The notes beneath the pieces are model-generated. The model did not search any database. It was not told the origin of the DNA and worked only from the letters and a program-made list of their open reading frames with translations. A program made the translations under genes and the position numbers. Shown here piece after piece: positions 2,440 to 21,257 of a stretch of DNA of 60,067 nt; position 1 is the stretch's first letter; each line of letters begins with the position of its first letter. This DNA is from a virus (Duplodnaviria > Caudoviricetes): positions 1-60,067 of the IMG/VR virus record IMGVR_UViG_3300034523_000297. One strand, 5' to 3'.

Positions 2440-4356
2440 CTAGAAGCCGGTTTTTCGGCTGTATTCGAACATCACGCACGGATTGTGCAGCGCGAAGACA
2501 TTTCCGAGCGGGGATTCGGCTGTGTCGTACAGCCCGTGCGTGTCCCGCAAGTTGCCGCGAGCGCCGCTGACAGGTCCAGAAGCGTTAGGATCACCTGGAC
2601 GACCTCGCGCATAGCTCAGTACGGCATCGCTCGCAGCAGCGCGGCTCAGGGCGATGCGGACTGTGTCAAATGCCGTCACGCTCACAGAGCTTATTATGGA
2701 AGTGGCGACCGTATCGCTCTCGCGGATATCGAAGCCGAAGTTCGGTGCCGACGCGGCCAGTGCAGTGTCGAGAACGAGCTGTCCACTCGGGACGTGGAAC
2801 TTGATGTCGATGTGGTCGGCGGCCCAGTCAACGGATACCGGCTCAAGCGGTCGCCACTTGCCGTTGCGACGGATCATCGTCTCGTACATAGCGCGACTGA
2901 AATACTCGCCCAGCAGCCAGCTGCCCTCGTTGGTGAGGTGCAGCAGGTCGCCCAGAGTCGGGAAGATGTATACCGGCACAGCCACGACCACGTCCGGACG
3001 CTGGCGGCTTGCGCGCCACTGAGCCAATGCGATTTGCATTGTGTCGCTGGAATACCTGCGGTGGGCGCCGACTTGGTAGGTGAAAAGGTACGGTCTGAAC
3101 TTCTGGCCGGTTATGCTTGCTACTTCTCTCGAGAGCCCATCGAACAGCTCAAGTTCCAGCTGAGCGTACTTGTACGCAGACTTGGTTGCTGTCGCGCCAG
3201 ACCCGGTAGTCGAGTAGTTTGCTTCGCCTTGAATCCAAGCGTAAGCCCACACCGAATAACTTTTGTTCAGGCTCTTCGAGAGAGCAGCTTGGTCCTTTAC
3301 CAGCTGAATCAGCTTTTGGTAGTCGCCGATCCCATTGGGACCTAGGGCTTCTACGCTCTGACCGCCTCGACCTGGTGCACAACCCACGAACACCCAATTG
3401 GCTGCAAGTTCACCGTCTTCTACAGCGCGTCGGGTAACGCCGTTACATAAGCCGGTTACTGGCGTTTCAGCGTCTTCATCTCGAAGCGTCTCTATCAAAG
3501 GAATGTAAGCTGTCGGGTTGTATCCGGGATCGCCAGCCCGAACTTTCGTGCCGCTGGCTAGCATCAGATTGCTATACGGTTGCGTAGTGGAGATCACCGG
3601 AGCTGAGCCAAACCCAACTCCAAGCGACTGACCATAATCTATTACGGCCATGTGGTCGGTCATCTGCTGCTGGTTCAGCTCAAGAGCAACAAACGCCCCT
3701 TGAGAAGCACCGCTCGAAGAATCATCCGCCCCTGAGAAGTCACCGTCTGGATAGATGAAGTCAAGTTCGTCGACAATCTCAATGCCGGTCGCATTGGAGC
3801 GCTCCAATACGAGGTCGTTGATGTCAGATTCATTTGCTCCGAACTTAGCCATCGGATTGCCGGCCAAATCGTAAAGGCCCAGGCCATTCTGCTCGTTGGC
3901 AATTCGCCCTCCCATCATTTCGAGGGAGCCATCATCCAGAAACTCGGCGACTACGAACTCATCTTCTCCAGCGAACTCAGTCGCCGCATCGCTCCAAGTT
4001 GAGTCGAATGTATTGATGTCCTCCCGGATTTCGGCGACCGCCTTCGAGTTCGGATAACTATCTACGAAAACAGCGGCTCCCGCGTCGTTACGGTAGACAT
4101 TTACATACTCATCCTGAGCGCTGGACAGCACGCTGAAGTTGGTGCCATTGGCAGTACCGGCAAGCCCAAGCGCCACCGATGCATAGGGCATTGCCCCGCC
4201 CAGCAAAGTCGCAAGGTTGGTCATCACCATGGCATTGGTGGGGCGAATAACGCCACCACCAACGTCCATCATTTTCACTTCGGGCGAAAGCAGTAGCTCA
4301 TTCGTCGTCCCGACAATCCGGTCCAGCTCTTGAAGAGTCTCTTGGCCGCTCATCAA
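2440..4356 (-). CDS. Tail spike/fibre with SGNH-type (sialate O-acetylesterase-like) domain
   Basis: N-terminal virion anchor region; GQSL, WIQGEAN and DLLH motifs. Confidence 0.75.
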   Translation of the reverse strand: MMSGQETLQELDRIVGTTNELLLSPEVKMMDVGGGVIRPTNAMVMTNLATLLGGAMPYASVALGLAGTANGTNFSVLSSAQDEYVNVYRNDAGAAVFVDSYPNSKAVAEIREDINTFDSTWSDAATEFAGEDEFVVAEFLDDGSLEMMGGRIANEQNGLGLYDLAGNPMAKFGANESDINDLVLERSNATGIEIVDELDFIYPDGDFSGADDSSSGASQGAFVALELNQQQMTDHMAVIDYGQSLGVGFGSAPVISTTQPYSNLMLASGTKVRAGDPGYNPTAYIPLIETLRDEDAETPVTGLCNGVTRRAVEDGELAANWVFVGCAPGRGGQSVEALGPNGIGDYQKLIQLVKDQAALSKSLNKSYSVWAYAWIQGEANYSTTGSGATATKSAYKYAQLELELFDGLSREVASITGQKFRPYLFTYQVGAHRRYSSDTMQIALAQWRASRQRPDVVVAVPVYIFPTLGDLLHLTNEGSWLLGEYFSRAMYETMIRRNGKWRPLEPVSVDWAADHIDIKFHVPSGQLVLDTALAASAPNFGFDIRESDTVATSIISSVSVTAFDTVRIALSRAAASDAVLSYARGRPGDPNASGPVSGARGNLRDTHGLYDTAESPLGNVFALHNPCVMFEYSRKTGF

Positions 4357-13726: not shown

Positions 13727-14086
13727 TTAACGGTCAGCCACACCATCAATCAGTGTGTTGACATCAGTTCGAACGGAATTCATGCAAGAGTCGTAATAGC
13801 GCTTTGGGTCTGCCCTTCCTGCGGCTGAGTCAGAGACGGCCAGAGCAATCAGCGCCGCCCCCTTTTTGTCGCCGGAAAGGCCTGACGCTTCGAGGATTTT
13901 CCCTTCCTGCACGCCGTTCCTCGCAGCCAAGACCGCACCTTGATAGACAGCCTGGCTATTGTGGCAATACGAGGCTGCGTTGAAGGCCGCATCAGCAGCC
14001 GCCTTCAGCTCATCCCGACTACTGCCATCCGCCAGTATCGGCATCGATACCGGAAATAGAGCTAACAAAACTAACGCCTTGCGCAT
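13727..14086 (-). CDS. Secreted hypothetical moron protein
   Basis: Signal peptide MRKALVLLALFPVSMPILA; two Cys. Confidence 0.6.
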   Translation of the reverse strand: MRKALVLLALFPVSMPILADGSSRDELKAAADAAFNAASYCHNSQAVYQGAVLAARNGVQEGKILEASGLSGDKKGAALIALAVSDSAAGRADPKRYYDSCMNSVRTDVNTLIDGVADR

Positions 14087-14165
14087 GAGGCATCCCCGAT
14101 CCATTGAGTTCGAGGAAATCTACCATCATCGGCACGATGCGCCAAAACCCCGCCAATGCAGGGTG

Positions 14166-14191
14166 AAAAAGAAAAGGCACCCGAAGGTGCC
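14166..14191 (-). terminator. Intrinsic terminator closing the RAMP/repeat operon
   Basis: Minus strand GGCACC-TTCG-GGTGCC followed by TTTTCTTTTT. Confidence 0.85.
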
Positions 14192-14210
14192 CTCTCGATG
14201 CCGTTTACGG

Positions 14211-14290
14211 CCCATGCCACACCGAGCCATACCATGCCCAGGCGTGCCGCTGCCTGCCAAACCTAACCACGCCGTAACGCGCCAAGTCAT
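14211..14290 (-). repeat. Period-5 (NN-GGY)n array, 16 units
   Basis: Minus strand: AT GAC TT GGC GC GTT AC GGC GT GGT TA GGT TT GGC AG GCA GC GGC AC GCC TG GGC AT GGT AT GGC TC GGT GT GGC AT GGG; every triplet starts with G, 11 of 16 are GGY. Confidence 0.93.
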
Positions 14291-14338
14291 CGGTGCTTAT
14301 GCACCGCAATGTCTCCTCGCAGAAGAGACATTACGCTG
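14211..14338 (-). ncRNA. Putative guide-like RNA unit 2 (hairpin leader + 16-unit NN-GGY array)
   Basis: Leader CGTAATGTCTCTTC-TGC-GAGGAGACATTGCG then GGTGC-ATAA-GCACC, directly followed by the array. Confidence 0.7.
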
Positions 14339-14345
14339 TTTTCAG

Positions 14346-14410
14346 CCCCTGCCGAACCATGCCGGGCCTGACCTTGCCTCACCTAACCCGGGCTAGTCGC
14401 AGCTCGACAT
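14346..14410 (-). repeat. Period-5 (NN-GGY)n array, 13 units
   Basis: Minus strand: AT GTC GA GCT GC GAC TA GCC CG GGT TA GGT GA GGC AA GGT CA GGC CC GGC AT GGT TC GGC AG GGG; 8 consecutive GGY units. Confidence 0.92.
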
Positions 14411-14460
14411 CATGATGCTTTCGCACCGCAATGCCCTCTCATAGAAAGGGCATTACGCTA
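14346..14460 (-). ncRNA. Putative guide-like RNA unit 1 (hairpin leader + 13-unit NN-GGY array)
   Basis: Leader CGTAATGCCCTTTC-TAT-GAGAGGGCATTGCG then GGTGC-GAAA-GCATC; begins right after the stop codon at 14462. Confidence 0.7.
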
Positions 14461-14461
14461 C

Positions 14462-14920
14462 TCAGCGCAAGGCCTTCGTCGCCATCCCGCGCAGCGCGGA
14501 GAACTTAGCCACCTGGTCCAGGTTTTCGCGCCTCTGATCGTCGGTCAGCTCCGTGATCCGCAGATTTCTGAGCTTCTGCCCGGCCCCGCGAAACACCTTG
14601 CGAACACCACGACCCAACTCCTCCATGGCCACGCCAGTCTGCTCATGCGGCGGAACCCAACGGTACCCACGCCCTCGCACCGACTGCAGGCAGACCTGGT
14701 GATCGCGCAGAAGCTCAGCCTTGAACGCCTCCACGTTTGCCAGCCATTCGAACTGCCGGTCGCGGAACTGCTCGACCGTGAGCGACTTGGATTCGCCCAT
14801 GGAGGGCATGCCGAATCGGGCTTCAAGCCAGTCGTGCCCCACAAGGTCGCCGTACTTGAAAGCTTTGAGGAAGTCTTCGACCGCCTGCTTGTGGCTTGGA
14901 TACTTTGTCACCTCAGACAT
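14462..14920 (-). CDS. Partner protein of the RAMP-like gene (possible winged-helix nucleic-acid-binding protein)
   Basis: 152 aa from MSEVTKY; overlaps the RAMP gene stop by 8 nt; LQSVRGRGYR wing-like motif; basic C-terminus. Confidence 0.7.
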   Translation of the reverse strand: MSEVTKYPSHKQAVEDFLKAFKYGDLVGHDWLEARFGMPSMGESKSLTVEQFRDRQFEWLANVEAFKAELLRDHQVCLQSVRGRGYRWVPPHEQTGVAMEELGRGVRKVFRGAGQKLRNLRITELTDDQRRENLDQVAKFSALRGMATKALR

Positions 14921-15488
14921 AGGCCACCTCAAATCGACCGAAGCGTGGGCGGTACTCGCAGACGCCGATCAGCTTGCCGGAGTCCTCGATGGCCTTCTTC
15001 ACCTCCTGAAGGTCAAGCACATCGGCATTGATCGCCACCTCAAGCTGGCAGGCCCAATCGAGGAAGATCGGCCGGTATCGCATGATCTTTGCCTGGCCAA
15101 CCTTCACGCCTCGGCAGTCGACGAAGCGCTGATCCTCCCAAAGCGACTCCGGCGTGTCCGGTCCATTGAATTCCAGGCTGGCCCTGTCGGTCATCACAAG
15201 CGCGCCGCGCTTCCAATGGGTTCCCAGCTTCTGCAGCTTGGCGCCAGCAAGGAAGGTGGCGTCAAAGTTTGCCCCCGGAATGTGGATGCCTGCTCGCTCG
15301 TCGAAGTAAACGCCTGCAATGAACTCGGACTTGGCGATGGCGACATGATCATCATCGACTTTTTTCCGCTTGCTGGTTAGCTCGCGGTGCGCCTTCGTCG
15401 CCGGGTGCAGCGGGTTGGCCAGCTTGTCGCTGTGCATCATCAATGGCGAAGTGCCCTTGATGCTCAGGGTAAGAAGCTCCATGGTCAT
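14913..15488 (-). CDS. Stand-alone Cas7/RAMP-superfamily-like protein
   Basis: N-terminal strand LSIKGTSPLMMH, IPGANF (cf. RAMP IPGSS), R-P-F-W strand, C-terminal Gly-rich loop GKLIGVCEYRPRFGRFEV. Confidence 0.75.
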   Translation of the reverse strand: MTMELLTLSIKGTSPLMMHSDKLANPLHPATKAHRELTSKRKKVDDDHVAIAKSEFIAGVYFDERAGIHIPGANFDATFLAGAKLQKLGTHWKRGALVMTDRASLEFNGPDTPESLWEDQRFVDCRGVKVGQAKIMRYRPIFLDWACQLEVAINADVLDLQEVKKAIEDSGKLIGVCEYRPRFGRFEVAYV

Positions 15489-16369
15489 TTCACCGCCCTC
15501 CGCGCCATGTACTCGAACCGACCGCGAAGGTTCACCACTGCTGCCATCAAGAACTCGAACATGTCCGGGGTCGATACTGGGATATCGCCTGGTGACATGA
15601 CCATCCCCTTGATGAGCTCGCGCGTTGACAGCACGCAGGCATCGTCAGCCACTTCCTCCACTCGCTGATCGCCCTTGTGGTCGAACGAGACCAGATAACG
15701 CTTTTGTGGGCCACCAACGATTTGGACCTGTTCACGCTTCGGTAAAAACTCACCCTCAACCACCGCATAGGCTGCAATGAAGTTCCGGGCGCCATCCAGG
15801 TGCTCTGCCGGGATATCAGCTGCGGATCGGACGCCGAACGCCGCATGCACCTGAGACCAGATCTTTGCCGTCGCGCGCCGCTGCATCTGAACAGGCAGCG
15901 CAGCTACCTTGCCCTTAACGATGGCGCCGAGCATGTGAAATCCATCGGTGCCAATGGTCTGACCGAGGAGGGTCATTGATTGGTTTGCCTCGCGATGATT
16001 CACTGCGCGCCCCTGATTCCAGTAGGACCACAGTGCGTCGTCGCATTCGTTCTGGTAGTCAATCACGCCATCGCGTAGTTCGGGGCGAACCTTGCTTGCA
16101 TGAATCGACATTAACCAGCCCGCGAGCTTACGCAGAGGCAGGCATGCCATTTCGTACTGCTTACCATCGGCACCAGTTGTGGTGATCATCACCATAACTG
16201 AATTGAACCGGCCTCCCTGGAGCTTTGTATGCTGGCTCTTCCAATCCAAGCCCATGCCTTCGACCACTGGCTTCATTGGAATGAATGGTTGTCCGTCTCG
16301 CTCGACGAGCAAAAGCTTCGCTGAACGGAACGGGATGACACTGGATGCAGCTGTGCTATTATCACTCAT
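15485..16369 (-). CDS. Phage antirepressor (P22 Ant N-terminal domain)
   Basis: PMKPVVEGMGLDWKSQ, CLPLRKLAGWL and YQNECDDALW motifs; start could extend to 16462. Confidence 0.9.
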   Translation of the reverse strand: MSDNSTAASSVIPFRSAKLLLVERDGQPFIPMKPVVEGMGLDWKSQHTKLQGGRFNSVMVMITTTGADGKQYEMACLPLRKLAGWLMSIHASKVRPELRDGVIDYQNECDDALWSYWNQGRAVNHREANQSMTLLGQTIGTDGFHMLGAIVKGKVAALPVQMQRRATAKIWSQVHAAFGVRSAADIPAEHLDGARNFIAAYAVVEGEFLPKREQVQIVGGPQKRYLVSFDHKGDQRVEEVADDACVLSTRELIKGMVMSPGDIPVSTPDMFEFLMAAVVNLRGRFEYMARRAVK

Positions 16370-16439
16370 GACGTTGTTTTCCTGATCGATGACTGCGTTG
16401 ATTCCCAAAGCCCTGGCCGTTGGCGCGACCGGGGCTTTT

Positions 16440-16607
16440 TCATGCCCGTTGTTTTTGCTCATCCTGCATCTCCTGCTCCAAGGACTTCCTCAGCCGAAAA
16501 ACGATTTCGCCGCTCAGGCTGCGGCCGTTCTCCTCCGCACGCTGCTCCAGCTTTTGCCGCAGCGTGCAAAGCATCCGTACTGCCGTAGTGATTTTCTCGC
16601 TTCCCAT
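16440..16607 (-). CDS. Arc-family ribbon-helix-helix repressor (55 aa, not in the ORF track)
   Basis: Own translation: MGSEKITTAVRMLCTLRQKLEQRAEENGRSLSGEIVFRLRKSLEQEMQDEQKQRA; typical A..NGRSL..EI..RL..SL motif. Confidence 0.85.
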   Translation of the reverse strand: MGSEKITTAVRMLCTLRQKLEQRAEENGRSLSGEIVFRLRKSLEQEMQDEQKQRA

Positions 16608-16612
16608 TACCC

Positions 16613-16669
16613 TGCTTCCTTTGCTTCATTTACAAGGACGATTCTTGCTTCCTTTGCTTCATTTGTCAA
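16613..16669 (-). promoter_or_regulatory. Sigma70 promoter of the arc-ant-RAMP operon with tandem operator repeats
   Basis: Minus strand TTGACA(16669-16664)-17 bp-AAGAAT(16646-16641); 19-bp direct repeat TGCTTCCTTTGCTTCATTT at 16613 and 16646. Confidence 0.75.
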
Positions 16670-16746: not shown

Positions 16747-17235
16747 ATGACTGATCTCTTCGCTGACAAGCTAATCCGACTCCGCACGCAAAAAGGCCTT
16801 ACACAGAGGGACCTTGCCGCGATGGCCGGCCTTTCCTGGTCGCAGATATCGAAATACGAGTCGGGAAAATCGAAGCCCCGCAAGAAAGCTTTATGGGCGC
16901 TGGAGGAGGCGCTTGACTGTCCCGGTGAATTGTCCAGTCAGATAGAAGCCTCGGCAGACGGTACCCATGCAGCCAGCCCCACAATGCAAGATCGCCTAGT
17001 GGAAGCACTCCACTCGCTCGACCCCGAAATCCAAAAGAGATGGAAGGAAGAAGCTAGAGAAAAAGGGCTCAGCTATGAGGATTACATCTTCCGCAGTGTC
17101 AAAGCGAACATGCTGGAGATGTCGCGCGATGCCGAAAAACAGGGTGATAAGAAGACAGCTAACGTCTTGCGGATAGTGGCTCTTGCGCTTTTCCGGTGGA
17201 TGGAAGATCCGGGTGAATCCGCCGAAGATGACTAA
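16747..17235 (+). CDS. XRE-family HTH regulator, divergent from arc
   Basis: LIRLRTQKGLTQRDLA...ISKYESGKSKP. Confidence 0.9.
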   Translation: MTDLFADKLIRLRTQKGLTQRDLAAMAGLSWSQISKYESGKSKPRKKALWALEEALDCPGELSSQIEASADGTHAASPTMQDRLVEALHSLDPEIQKRWKEEAREKGLSYEDYIFRSVKANMLEMSRDAEKQGDKKTANVLRIVALALFRWMEDPGESAEDD

Positions 17236-17623: not shown

Positions 17624-18085
17624 TCAGGTATAGATCCATTTGTGCGCCGGCAACCGGACGGAGTAGGCTTGGGCCTCTTCGGCAAACATCTCGCCCATCG
17701 CCCTCATCCCGACTATGTCATCCATGAGCTGGTGCCCTTTAGGGGTTAGCAAATCGACGAGCATTATGGGATGCAAATGAGCAGGGTACGTCAGATCTGG
17801 GATGCCGCCGTAAACTAGGATTTTGTCCGATGTATAGTCATCCTGGGGTCCGTTACGATCCCAGACCGCCTGCCATTGCCGCTCTACTGATTCCTCTTCC
17901 ATGTGAACATGGCGCAACCCCTGCTTTACCACCACGTCAGGGAACAAAAAACCTTTGTCGCGCCCAAAAATCCTGCCAAACTCGTTGGCTTGATCCATTT
18001 TGTAGGTTTGAAAATCCTGAGCGAGCTCAAGAGCTAAATCATCGCCAAGAGACCGAGCTAGCGGGCGACTGACGATAATCCTCAT
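17624..18085 (-). CDS. YafO-like type II toxin (mRNA interferase)
   Basis: FGRDKGF...LRHVH...TSD.ILVY...P.GH pattern characteristic of the YafO family. Confidence 0.65.
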   Translation of the reverse strand: MRIIVSRPLARSLGDDLALELAQDFQTYKMDQANEFGRIFGRDKGFLFPDVVVKQGLRHVHMEEESVERQWQAVWDRNGPQDDYTSDKILVYGGIPDLTYPAHLHPIMLVDLLTPKGHQLMDDIVGMRAMGEMFAEEAQAYSVRLPAHKWIYT

Positions 18086-20093: not shown

Positions 20094-21257
20094 TTACGCG
20101 GTGACCGTGATCGCCGAAGTCGCGGTTTTGGTCGGGTCCGACACGCTAGTGGCGGTGATGACTGCCGAGCCAGCAGCAACGCCGGTGACCAGGCCAGACG
20201 AGTTGACAGTGGCAATCGACGGGTCCGAGCTGCCCCAGGTAACTTCCTGAGAAGCGCCAGATGGCAGCGCAGATGCTGACAACTGGCGGGTCGCGGCTAC
20301 TGCAATCGAAGCGGTAGACGGGGTGACTGACACGCTGGTGACGGGCACGAACGGCACGCGGGTGATGGTCGGGGCCTGCTTGGCAACGGTCCAGTTCAAG
20401 GTCACTTCGATCAGGTCACGCTTACCACCATTCGGCAGATCGCCATCGACCTCAATCGCCGGGAAGGACAGCTCATAGCGGTTGCCCAGGCTATCAGTGA
20501 TCGGGAACTCGGCCGCGATAGTTTTCCGGGTGAACGTGTTCTTCCAGATTTGCCAGGCGCGGCTCGACCAGGCCAGGGTGATGGTGCCGGTGATGGCTGC
20601 CTCAGTCGCGATCTGCGCCCCCGGCCCGAGCTTGCCGCTGCCAATGCAGCGCTGCGCCTGGAGGCTGTTGTCCAGATTTACGGTAAGCGCCGAAACGCAC
20701 GCCACACCTTCCAGGCTCTGCCCGTCGACCGAGATGCTACCAATGTTCAAATTGCTCATGAACGGCGTGGTTGTAGGCGGGCTTATGGTGCCTACGGTAT
20801 TGGTGTCGCCGTCGGCATAGTCCAGGCCAGCCATGGTGAAGGTGGCGGTGATCTTGCCGTCGGACGGGATGTCCAGGGCGAAGACCGAAACGTGCATGCC
20901 GCGGAACAAGGTGTACACGCTCACGTCGTTGAAGTTTTTCGCGACACTGAATGTCCGTCGAGTGCTGCCTACGGTCAGAACGTCATCAGTCCAGGTTCCG
21001 TAGAAGGCCGCCTCCAGCAGCTTATCGAAGGTGCCATAGGACAGCTCGCCAACCAGATCGCCTTGAATATTGGCGCTGGATACGACCGAACCCTGGCTGA
21101 TCCGTGAATCGGTGATCTCATCACTAACCTGAGTGCTCACTGTCGGCGACAGGGTGTTACCGGTTAGGCGCAAGGTATCCCAGGCCCCAGTGGCTGGGGT
21201 TACACCCGGAGAGAGCTCAGTGATCATGTAACTTGTGACTTGGGCGCCGCTGCTCAT
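20094..21257 (-). CDS. Major tail tube protein with C-terminal Ig-like (Big_2) domain
   Basis: MSSGA start typical of the tube family; VTSVSVTP...VTWGSSDPSIATV Ig motif. Confidence 0.92.
   Translation of the reverse strand: MSSGAQVTSYMITELSPGVTPATGAWDTLRLTGNTLSPTVSTQVSDEITDSRISQGSVVSSANIQGDLVGELSYGTFDKLLEAAFYGTWTDDVLTVGSTRRTFSVAKNFNDVSVYTLFRGMHVSVFALDIPSDGKITATFTMAGLDYADGDTNTVGTISPPTTTPFMSNLNIGSISVDGQSLEGVACVSALTVNLDNSLQAQRCIGSGKLGPGAQIATEAAITGTITLAWSSRAWQIWKNTFTRKTIAAEFPITDSLGNRYELSFPAIEVDGDLPNGGKRDLIEVTLNWTVAKQAPTITRVPFVPVTSVSVTPSTASIAVAATRQLSASALPSGASQEVTWGSSDPSIATVNSSGLVTGVAAGSAVITATSVSDPTKTATSAITVTA

What the first reader, a model, noticed from the sequence alone, without database searches (positions are those of the whole stretch)
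14291..14460. Duplicated RNA leader with compensatory base changes in front of each array
Seen: copy A CGTAATGCCCTTTC-TAT-GAGAGGGCATTGCG and copy B CGTAATGTCTCTTC-TGC-GAGGAGACATTGCG both form 14-bp stems. The three stem positions that differ (8, 10, 11) all change in compensating pairs. Each stem is followed by a small hairpin (GGTGC-GAAA-GCATC or GGTGC-ATAA-GCACC). Inference: selection acts on RNA structure; the leader may be a processing or loading handle that splits the transcript into individual guides.
Basis: seen in the sequence. Interest (0 to 1): 0.8.

Follow-up and report, generated by a model that had tools for sequence, protein, structure and literature searches.

The report
Hairpins punctuating a phage guide-RNA array

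Summary
Observation confirmed. On the minus strand, two hairpins (14457-14427 and 14335-14305) form 14-bp stems that differ at three positions, each by a compensating double change. Each is followed by a small tetraloop hairpin.

A covariance model finds the same element 114 times in 65 sources. Cells paired are 97.6% against 78.2% in shuffles (0/500), and all 13 pairs of the long stem covary.

The element belongs to a type II VIPR system (bioRxiv 10.64898/2026.04.26.720920):
- The upstream 191-aa gene folds like Cas7/Csm3 and is 40% identical to the phage SUSP1 Vipr.
- The next gene is a vap1 homologue.
- The "arrays" are 12 and 15 YNNGG pentamers, i.e. vrRNA guides.

The published one-base-skip rule holds in my data. 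22 of 75 guides find ≥80% matches at skip 1, against 0 at skip 0 and 1 at skip 2.

The window's first guide matches the tail-tube gene start region in 33 viral contigs. An order-reversed control found none.

The long hairpin flanks guides on both sides. The small hairpin goes with the downstream guide, and a mini-hairpin (P3) with the upstream one.

A role in processing or loading is plausible but not shown, because no RNA data were available. Verdict: a new member of a known kind, with structural detail I did not find in the preprint texts.

The parts
16641..16669 (-). Sigma-70-like promoter (TTGACA-17-AAGAAT) in front of the operon
   Evidence: It is the only promoter-like site on the minus strand between 13600 and 16800. 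A consensus match only.
16747..17235 (+). Divergent HTH_3 regulator gene
   Evidence: Pfam HTH_3, E 3.2e-15.
16440..16607 (-). Arc-like ribbon-helix-helix gene, first gene of the operon
   Evidence: Pfam Arc, E 3.3e-8.
15485..16462 (-). Antirepressor-like gene (P22_AR_N)
   Evidence: Pfam P22_AR_N, E 3e-46. PHROG 524 'anti-repressor Ant'.
14913..15488 (-). vipr: 191-aa minimal RAMP (Cas7-like)
   Evidence: AlphaFold2 model: pLDDT 70, pTM 0.66. The listed Foldseek PDB hits lie in CRISPR type VII, type III-A Csm or type III-B Cmr effector-complex entries, best 8z4j_J at E 4.9e-5. 40% identical to SUSP1 YP_009199429.1, pairwise E 2e-53.
14462..14920 (-). vap1 homologue, 152 aa from the ATG at 14920
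   Evidence: 23% identity, E 1e-13, to the SUSP1 gene downstream of vipr. The predicted fold has a helix-strand-helix part plus a beta-hairpin. PDB matches are weak only, all winged-helix regulators, best E 0.065.
14427..14457 (-). P1 copy A: 14-bp hairpin, loop UAU
   Evidence: Model R1 hit 14411-14468, 47.6 bits.
14414..14427 (-). P2 copy A: GGUGC-GAAA-GCAUC
14347..14406 (-). vrRNA-1 guide tract: 12 YNNGG units, the first three degenerate
   Evidence: It matches 23 of 24 NN positions at the tail-tube gene start region of 20 viral contigs.
14335..14346 (-). P3 mini-hairpin GCUG-AAAA-CAGC, closing tract 1
   Evidence: Paired in 99.4% of cells.
14305..14335 (-). P1 copy B: 13/14-bp hairpin, loop UGC
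   Evidence: Model R1 hit 14289-14348, 69.7 bits.
14292..14305 (-). P2 copy B: GGUGC-AUAA-GCACC
14212..14286 (-). vrRNA-2 guide tract: 15 YNNGG units
   Evidence: No target found.
14200..14211 (-). Terminal P3' mini-hairpin GCCG-UAAA-CGGC
   Evidence: It varies with the internal P3 as GCUG/CAGC against GCCG/CGGC.
14166..14196 (-). Intrinsic terminator: 11-bp stem, UUCG loop, U run

Best explanation
The two hairpins are the structured inter-guide elements of a type II VIPR guide-RNA (vrRNA) array in a Pseudomonas-type prophage.

**Layout**
- The operon arc - ant-like - vipr - vap1 is read on the minus strand.
- It probably starts at the single promoter-like site at 16669-16641.
- It runs through two vrRNA units to the terminator at 14196-14166.
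- Each unit is: P1 (13/14-bp hairpin) + P2 (small tetraloop hairpin), then the (YNNGG)n guide tract, then a constant last pentamer + P3 (mini-hairpin GCYG-NNAA-CRGC).

**Taken from the preprints (published for SUSP1 and P. fulva)**
- Vipr, a Cas7-like RAMP, polymerises along the tract, one protomer per pentamer.
- The NN dinucleotides read double-stranded DNA with one base skipped per repeat, which silences transcription.

**Shown here**
- The helices are under selection.
- P1 flanks guides on both sides, P2 goes with the guide downstream, and P3 with the guide upstream.
- Tandem copies never share the same P1 sequence.
- The guides hit rival phages.

**Inferred (about even odds)**
- P1-P2 marks where the polycistronic precursor is cut, and/or where the Vipr filament is bounded.
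- That would release individual vrRNAs, much as hammerhead ribozymes are drawn to do in type I/V arrays.
- The compensating differences between copies A and B would then reflect selection to keep the helix while avoiding identical tandem repeats, which could mispair or recombine.
For: **Structure**
- (covariation, energy, strand asymmetry).
- The U.G pairs at P1 pairs 2 and 11 are kept in 76 and 88 of 93 rows.

**System identity**
- Vipr fold. Homology to SUSP1 Vipr and to the gene after it.
- That protein is named as Vipr in a passage of 10.64898/2026.10.15.759431.
- YNNGG tracts. System description: 10.64898/2026.04.26.720920, Results and Discussion sections read.

**Guides are real**
- 75 guides searched against 328 kb: best NN match of 80% or more in 0/75 at skip 0, 22/75 at skip 1, 1/75 at skip 2, and 2/75 with unit order shuffled.
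- Units 2-10 of the window's vrRNA-1: 33 exact hits in viral contigs, against 0 for the same units in reversed order.
- All 33 hits lie at the start of a tail-tube ORF.

**Need for processing**
- No promoter-like site lies between vap1 and the terminator.

**Position logic**

| Unit class | n | P3 4/4 pairs | P1 at least 12/13 pairs | P2 at least 4 pairs |
|---|---|---|---|---|
| Internal | 63 | 61 | 57 | 62 |
| First (no tract upstream) | 36 | 18 | 36 | 36 |
| Terminal (no tract downstream) | 13 | 13 | 13 | 5 |

The remaining 2 of the 114 units had no tract called on either side (P3 1, P1 2, P2 2).

**P1 is not required 3' of a guide**
- 8 of the 22 well-targeted guides end in P3' plus the terminator, with no P1 after them.

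**Same logic in SUSP1-type phages**
- 10 of 10 detected tracts are directly preceded by a hairpin with a similar CUUC...GAGG apex.
- That hairpin is separate from the 3' pseudoknot tail.

**Copies within a locus**
- 0 of 71 within-locus P1 pairs are identical.
Against: - No RNA ends were seen. No listed holder of this DNA is on record as RNA, and the two raw RNA runs laid gave no reads.
- The preprint passages I read speak only of a 3' tail of about 40 nt. P3 + P1 is about 43 nt, so P1 could be just that tail.
- In seven distant loci (L036-L041, L043) the first tract starts at the vap stop codon with no hairpin before it. An upstream P1 is therefore not universal.
- Model R1's matches to the SUSP1 hairpins are weak (E 0.15-3.7). 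Homology between the two hairpin types is a resemblance, not a demonstration.
- The covariation alignment was fitted to the model, and its rows are related to one another.
- No target was found for vrRNA-2.
Confidence: 0.8

Rival explanations
1. P1 is only the 3' tail (cap) of the preceding vrRNA, as the preprint describes for SUSP1. It has no role in cutting or in the downstream guide. The first-position copy is a leftover.
For: - The preprint describes a tail of about 40 nt 3' of the last repeat; P3 + P1 is about 43 nt.
- Terminal units keep P3 and P1 (13 of 13) but mostly lose P2.
- Seven distant loci have no hairpin before the first tract.
Against: - All 36 first-position units keep P1 (at least 12 of 13 pairs) and P2, with no tract upstream. 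These include covarying variants.
- 8 of the 22 well-targeted guides have no P1 downstream.
- In SUSP1-type phages the hairpin is separate from the pseudoknot tail and lies directly 5' of the tract.
- The structural preprint saw no 3' fiducial structure in P. fulva complexes (passage).
Confidence: 0.3
2. P3-P1-P2 is a small self-cleaving ribozyme, the counterpart of the hammerheads that separate vrRNAs in type I and V arrays.
For: - It occupies the same position between guides as the published hammerheads (and the legend of fig. S19).
- It has three helices.
Against: - No Rfam family matches at E up to 10.
- The three helices abut with no conserved unpaired core.
- The conserved letters lie inside the helices and in a tetraloop.
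Confidence: 0.05
3. They are generic stabilising or attenuating hairpins of an mRNA 3' region, unrelated to the pentamer tracts.
For: - Copy A lies right after the vap1 stop codon.
- The stems are stable.
Against: - No U run follows them.
- They recur once per tract in 44 of 44 related sources.
- Their apex and base letters are conserved while the middle covaries.
- The true terminator is a separate hairpin.
Confidence: 0.05
4. It is a DNA-level element (a cruciform or protein-binding palindrome), not an RNA.
For: Inverted repeats are present in the DNA.
Against: - Conserved U.G pairs exist on one strand only, and the other strand folds worse.
- Model R1 scores 85 bits on the operon strand against 27 bits on the other for the same site.
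Confidence: 0.02

Closest known systems
Type II VIPR systems (Escherichia phage SUSP1; Pseudomonas fulva prophage), bioRxiv 10.64898/2026.04.26.720920 and 10.64898/2026.04.26.720927
   Same: - A roughly 20-kDa Cas7-like Vipr, here 40% identical to the SUSP1 protein.
- A vap1 homologue next to it.
- vrRNAs made of YNNGG repeats with variable NN.
- Arrays downstream of the genes.
- One-base-skip matches to rival phage DNA.
- A prophage setting.
   Different: - SUSP1 caps each vrRNA with a 3' pseudoknot. Here the tract ends in a 4-bp mini-hairpin (P3) followed by P1-P2.
- The operon here also carries Arc-like and antirepressor-like genes, under a divergent HTH regulator.
- The window's first guide aims at a tail-tube gene start region. 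The preprint reports lysis-lysogeny regulators as the main targets of the P. fulva clade.
CRISPR repeat hairpins (Cas6-processed class 1 arrays)
   Same: - A hairpin flanks every guide on both sides.
- A RAMP protein coats the guide.
- A polycistronic precursor must be split.
   Different: - CRISPR repeats within an array are near-identical. Here 0 of 71 within-locus P1 pairs are identical.
- The guides are non-contiguous pentamer codes, not contiguous spacers.
- There is no Cas6, Cas1 or Cas2.
Hammerhead-interspersed vrRNA arrays of VIPR types I and V (same preprint, legend of fig. S19)
   Same: A structured RNA element sits between adjacent vrRNAs, at the place where they must be separated.
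   Different: No ribozyme core and no Rfam match here. Cutting, if it happens at the hairpin, would need a protein.

Membership tests
VIPR system, type II | Vipr protein: small RAMP with RRM core, G-loop and thumb, about 20 kDa | tested here: met
   - 191 aa.
- The listed Foldseek hits lie in CRISPR type VII, type III-A Csm or type III-B Cmr effector-complex entries. The model is only moderately confident (pLDDT 70).
- 40% identity to SUSP1 YP_009199429.1, E 2e-53.
- Invariant C-terminal glycine-rich motif.
VIPR system, type II | vrRNA tract of tandem YNNGG pentamers with conserved GGY and variable NN (9-16 in the preprint) | tested here: met
   - 12 and 15 units in the window.
- 97 runs were called in 44 sources by a loose caller; some short ones are false calls.
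- Some relatives carry 20-30 units, beyond the published range.
VIPR system, type II | Conserved structured 3' extension (tail) after the last repeat | tested here: met
   P3, then P1, follow the tract. The fold differs from the SUSP1 pseudoknot.
VIPR system, type II | Adjacent vap accessory gene (vap1, predicted DNA-binding) | tested here: met
   - Homologous to the SUSP1 gene downstream of vipr.
- Called next to a vipr-like ORF in 38 of 42 viral loci.
- A DNA-binding fold has only weak support.
- That the SUSP1 gene is vap1 is inferred from its place in the operon.
VIPR system, type II | Guides match DNA by the one-base-skip rule | tested here: met
   This is sequence matching only. Binding and silencing were not tested.
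VIPR system, type II | vrRNAs are expressed, about 100 nt long, and co-purify with Vipr | not testable with these tools
   No RNA reads were found for this locus.
CRISPR-Cas array | Near-identical direct repeats separating contiguous spacers, with cas1/cas2 or cas6 nearby | tested here: not met
   - Hairpin copies differ at 2-19 of 26 arm positions within a locus.
- The tracts have a 5-nt period.
- No other cas-like gene was seen among the operon genes scanned.
Any Rfam family (ribozymes, leaders, sRNAs) | Match to a curated covariance model | tested here: not met
   No match over 14200-14460 at E up to 10.

The most novel reading that the evidence does not exclude
P1-P2 is a dedicated recognition hairpin that Vipr itself (or Vap1) binds, to cut the precursor and to seed or bound the filament. 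That would make it a functional forerunner of the CRISPR repeat. It flanks every guide, yet it is kept by structure plus a few apex and base letters (U.G, U-A, C-G) rather than by sequence identity. It is shared, in diverged form, by SUSP1-type and Pseudomonas-type type II systems.
Probability: 0.3. Interest if true: 0.75.

Novelty: new member of a known kind. Interest (0 to 1): 0.5.

Why it matters
VIPR was described only in 2026 preprints. The texts I could read say nothing about how type II arrays are split into single guides. They also say that no 3' landmark structure was seen in the Pseudomonas-type complex.

A covariation-backed three-helix element with clear position rules gives a concrete, mutable candidate for that step. 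The rules are P3 with the upstream guide, P2 with the downstream guide, and P1 with both.

It also gives a covariance model for annotating such arrays.

Two smaller points come out of the target matches. The last pentamer does not seem to take part in targeting. This prophage aims one guide at the tail-tube gene start region of its relatives while being targeted by their guides.

Tried and rejected
- **Rfam:** nothing over the element at E up to 10.
- **PADLOC and NCBIfam:** nothing for the four operon proteins.
- **Ideas held before the literature hit and then dropped:**
  - A sponge for a ring-shaped RNA-binding protein (TRAP-like), an RsmA/CsrA sponge, tandem G-quadruplexes, and a type III toxin-antitoxin RNA.
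  - They were dropped once the Cas7-like fold, the SUSP1 homology and the target matches fitted VIPR.
- **RNA evidence:**
  - No RNA holder is listed for this DNA.
  - X1 and X2 are probably DNA contigs that hold the stretch whole.
  - The raw RNA runs X21 and X23 gave no reads, which is no test.
- **vrRNA-2 target:** not found in any of four searches.
  - The window and 64 loci, best 22 of 30.
  - The two genomes holding L045 and L046, up to 3 mismatches.
  - 401 genomes of the genus of G001, the genome holding the Pseudomonas entomophila locus L045, with up to 3 mismatches.
  - Units 4-12 exact in viral contigs.
- **Model R1 on SUSP1:** only weak partial hits, E 0.15-3.7.
- **Mycobacteriophage LittleE inter-guide elements:** ARAGORN found 0 tRNA genes and Rfam nothing.
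- **vap1 fold:** no PDB match at E of 0.001 or below.
- **Terminator resemblance:**
  - The terminator's 5' arm repeats hairpin A's 3' arm.
  - It does not change when hairpin A does in other loci, so I treat it as chance.
- **Earlier findings of this scan:** none.
- **Papers:** supplementary files and figures could not be seen. Figs S6, S8 and S9 of the first preprint may already show the ends and logos of P. fulva vrRNAs.

Full report
**1. What is there**

The finding lies in a 357-base gap (14105-14461) between minus-strand genes. Read on the minus strand, the order is:

| Element | Coordinates | Detail |
|---|---|---|
| Stop codon of a 152-aa gene | 14464-14462 | |
| Hairpin A (P1) | 14457-14427 | |
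| Small hairpin (P2) | 14427-14414 | GGUGC-GAAA-GCAUC |
| Tract 1 | 14406-14347 | 12 pentamers, mostly YNNGG |
| Mini-hairpin (P3) | 14346-14335 | GCUG-AAAA-CAGC |
| Hairpin B (P1) | 14335-14305 | |
| Small hairpin (P2) | 14305-14292 | GGUGC-AUAA-GCACC |
| Tract 2 | 14286-14212 | 15 pentamers |
| Terminal mini-hairpin (P3') | 14211-14200 | GCCG-UAAA-CGGC |
| Intrinsic terminator | 14196-14166 | |

One detail needs correcting: the last G of the long stem is also the first G of the small hairpin.

**2. Is it more than chance?**

- RNAfold folds unit B exactly as P3 / P1 (13 bp) / P2 (5 bp) at -31.0 kcal/mol (z -6.7). Unit A folds at -31.8 kcal/mol (z -6.6). No shuffle of 200 does as well, and the plus strand folds worse.
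- The 152-aa protein brought in 42 related viral loci, all with the same layout downstream.
- A plain hairpin finder that demands perfect pairing found long stems with quite different letters at the same place.
- I built a covariance model from 11 uniform units. It found:
  - at least one unit on the operon strand in 44 of 44 sources at E of 0.001 or below;
  - units in 16 of 21 further genome loci from Pseudomonas, beta-, alpha- and other gamma-proteobacteria;
  - only the two units in the whole 60-kb window at E of 1e-4 or below.
- On 114 hits (93 distinct rows), 97.6% of cells pair. Shuffles give 78.2% (0/500) and slid partners give 35-60%.
- In that count, 13 of 13 P1 pairs and 5 of 6 P2 pairs change on both sides.
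- That alignment is fitted to the model and its rows are related. As an independent check, RNAalifold on an unfitted MAFFT alignment of 38 units predicted P3 and P1 by itself, with 10 of 14 pairs showing double changes.
- The middle of P1 varies freely. The base (G-C, U.G) and the apex (U.G in 88 of 93 rows, U-A in 76, C-G in 74) are kept.
- The U.G pairs fix the RNA strand as the minus strand.

**3. What it is**

A text search for pentanucleotide repeats, noncoding RNA, prophage and Pseudomonas returned bioRxiv 10.64898/2026.04.26.720920. I read its Results, its Discussion and three Methods sections.

The preprint describes VIPR systems as:
- a small RAMP protein (Vipr) and an accessory gene (vap);
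- vrRNAs of 9-16 YNNGG repeats with hypervariable NN, followed by a structured 3' tail;
- recognition of double-stranded DNA through the NN pairs, with one skipped base per repeat.

I tested each defining feature:
- **Vipr fold.** The 191-aa gene upstream (14913-15488) gave an AlphaFold2 model of moderate confidence (pLDDT 70). Its listed Foldseek PDB hits lie in CRISPR type VII, type III-A Csm or type III-B Cmr effector-complex entries, with 26 at E of 0.001 or below.
- **Vipr homology.** It is 40% identical to SUSP1 YP_009199429.1. A passage of 10.64898/2026.10.15.759431 names that protein as Vipr.
- **vap1.** The 152-aa gene is homologous to the SUSP1 gene that follows vipr.
- **Tracts.** They parse as YNNGG units anchored on P3.

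So this is a type II VIPR locus. Here it is embedded in an Arc / antirepressor-like operon with a divergent HTH regulator, and it sits among tail genes of a prophage.

**4. Independent test of the guide idea**

I took 75 distinct guides from the loci and searched 328 kb (the window plus 43 loci). The count of guides whose best NN match reached 80% was:

| Rule | Guides with best match ≥ 80% |
|---|---|
| Skip 0 | 0 of 75 |
| Skip 1 | 22 of 75 |
| Skip 2 | 1 of 75 |
| Skip 1, unit order shuffled | 2 of 75 |

Skip 3 trivially finds each guide's own tract.

In the 22 good matches the last pentamer (usually YAUGG) mismatches in 16. It seems to belong to the constant tail rather than to the guide.

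For the window's own guides:
- Units 2-10 of vrRNA-1 match 33 viral contigs exactly. The same units in reversed order match none.
- 20 of the 33 match 23 of 24 NN positions over all 12 units.
- All 33 sites cover a 12-bp palindrome, the Shine-Dalgarno sequence and the ATG of a tail-tube gene. One ORF was checked by Pfam (Phage_tube_2 + Big_2). 28 of the 33 ORFs are complete, at 307 or 389 aa.
- The window's own tube gene (20094-21257) has a different start region.
- vrRNA-2 found no target.

**5. Leader, tail or both?**

I sorted the 114 units by whether a tract lies upstream or downstream:

| Unit class | n | P3 4/4 pairs | P1 at least 12/13 pairs | P2 at least 4 pairs |
|---|---|---|---|---|
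| Internal | 63 | 61 | 57 | 62 |
| First (no tract upstream) | 36 | 18 | 36 | 36 |
| Terminal (no tract downstream) | 13 | 13 | 13 | 5 |

The remaining 2 of the 114 units had no tract called on either side (P3 1, P1 2, P2 2). A few units are misclassified by the simple tract detector.

P3 therefore goes with the upstream guide, P2 with the downstream guide, and P1 with both.

Further points bearing on this:
- 8 of the 22 well-targeted guides end in P3' plus the terminator and have no P1 after them. P1 is not an obligatory 3' cap.
- In SUSP1, Moogle and wV8, 10 of 10 detected tracts are directly preceded by a hairpin with a similar CUUC...GAGG apex. Their 3' pseudoknot tail is a separate element. 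R1 matches these hairpins only weakly.
- In P. aeruginosa phage LESphi2 the array lies upstream of vipr and shows the same P3-P1-P2 units.
- Against a universal leader role, seven distant loci start their first tract at the vap stop codon with no hairpin before it.
- Only one promoter-like site precedes the operon, and none lies inside the array. A long precursor probably has to be cut.
- The published vrRNA size (about 100 nt, under 100 nt) is shorter than my 122-nt unit. This is an inference, as I could not see the sequencing figures.
- The words leader, stem, hairpin and matur- do not occur in the VIPR preprint texts where I searched them: leader, stem and matur- in 720920, hairpin and stem in 720927, hairpin, leader and stem-loop in 759431.
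- The structural preprint says the P. fulva complexes lack a landmark like the SUSP1 pseudoknot.

**6. Why compensating changes between copies A and B?**

In 42 loci with two or more units, 0 of 71 within-locus P1 pairs are identical. The median difference is 8 of 26 arm positions.

I infer selection for the helix together with selection against identical tandem copies, which could mispair or recombine. This sets the element apart from CRISPR repeats.

**7. Verdict**

- The system is known from 2026 preprints, and this locus is a new member.
- The three-helix inter-guide element and its position rules are details I did not find in the texts I could read. Supplementary figures I could not see may cover part of this.
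- The function (cutting and/or bounding the Vipr filament) is inferred, not shown.

Noticed in passing
window 14347-14406 (-); targets in L066-L098, e.g. L098:7821-7855: The window's first guide matches 23 of 24 NN positions at a palindrome + Shine-Dalgarno + ATG site in front of the tail-tube gene of related phages (33 viral contigs). One of these is the provirus that also holds the VIPR locus L003. The window's own tube gene start region differs.
   Followed up: yes
window 15924-15955 and 20815-20846 (+): Guides of other proviruses match the window at 10 of 11 units each. The first guide of L011 matches inside the antirepressor-like gene of the window's own VIPR operon. The first guide of L007 matches inside the tail-tube gene. 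In both cases only the constant last unit mismatches.
   Followed up: partly
all arrays; last pentamer before P3 (window 14351-14347 and 14216-14212): The last pentamer is nearly constant (YAUGG). It mismatches the target in 16 of 22 good guide-target pairs, so it seems to belong to the tail rather than to the guide.
   Followed up: partly
L013-L015, L017, L020-L023: Some tracts run to 18-30 pentamers without an interruption, beyond the 9-16 given in the preprint.
   Followed up: no
L103 (Mycobacterium phage LittleE) about 1742-1796, 1867-1930, 3198-3241, 3327-3393: Between the pentamer tracts lie elements holding GGTTCGAGTCC or GTTCGATTC. From memory, this looks like a tRNA T-arm. If so, the punctuation there could be tRNA-like. 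ARAGORN and Rfam find nothing.
   Followed up: partly
L100 (Pseudomonas phage LESphi2) 2084-2470: A three-guide array with the same P3-P1-P2 units lies upstream of vipr, next to the cI/cro region, rather than downstream of vap.
   Followed up: no
window 14105-14165 and 13727-14104 (-): After the terminator comes a short conserved stretch (GATGGTAGATTG in many loci), followed by a small ORF that differs from locus to locus. Many of these ORFs have hydrophobic N-termini. It looks like a separate cargo slot.
   Followed up: no
window 17624-18085 (-): The ORF matches Pfam YafO_toxin (E 2.3e-9), a type II toxin family, just beyond the HTH regulator.
   Followed up: no
window 14188-14200 and 14440-14452: The terminator's 5' arm (GAGAGGGCA) repeats the 3' arm of hairpin A, so hairpin A's 5' arm could pair with it. 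It does not covary in loci that have a different hairpin A, so this is probably chance.
   Followed up: partly
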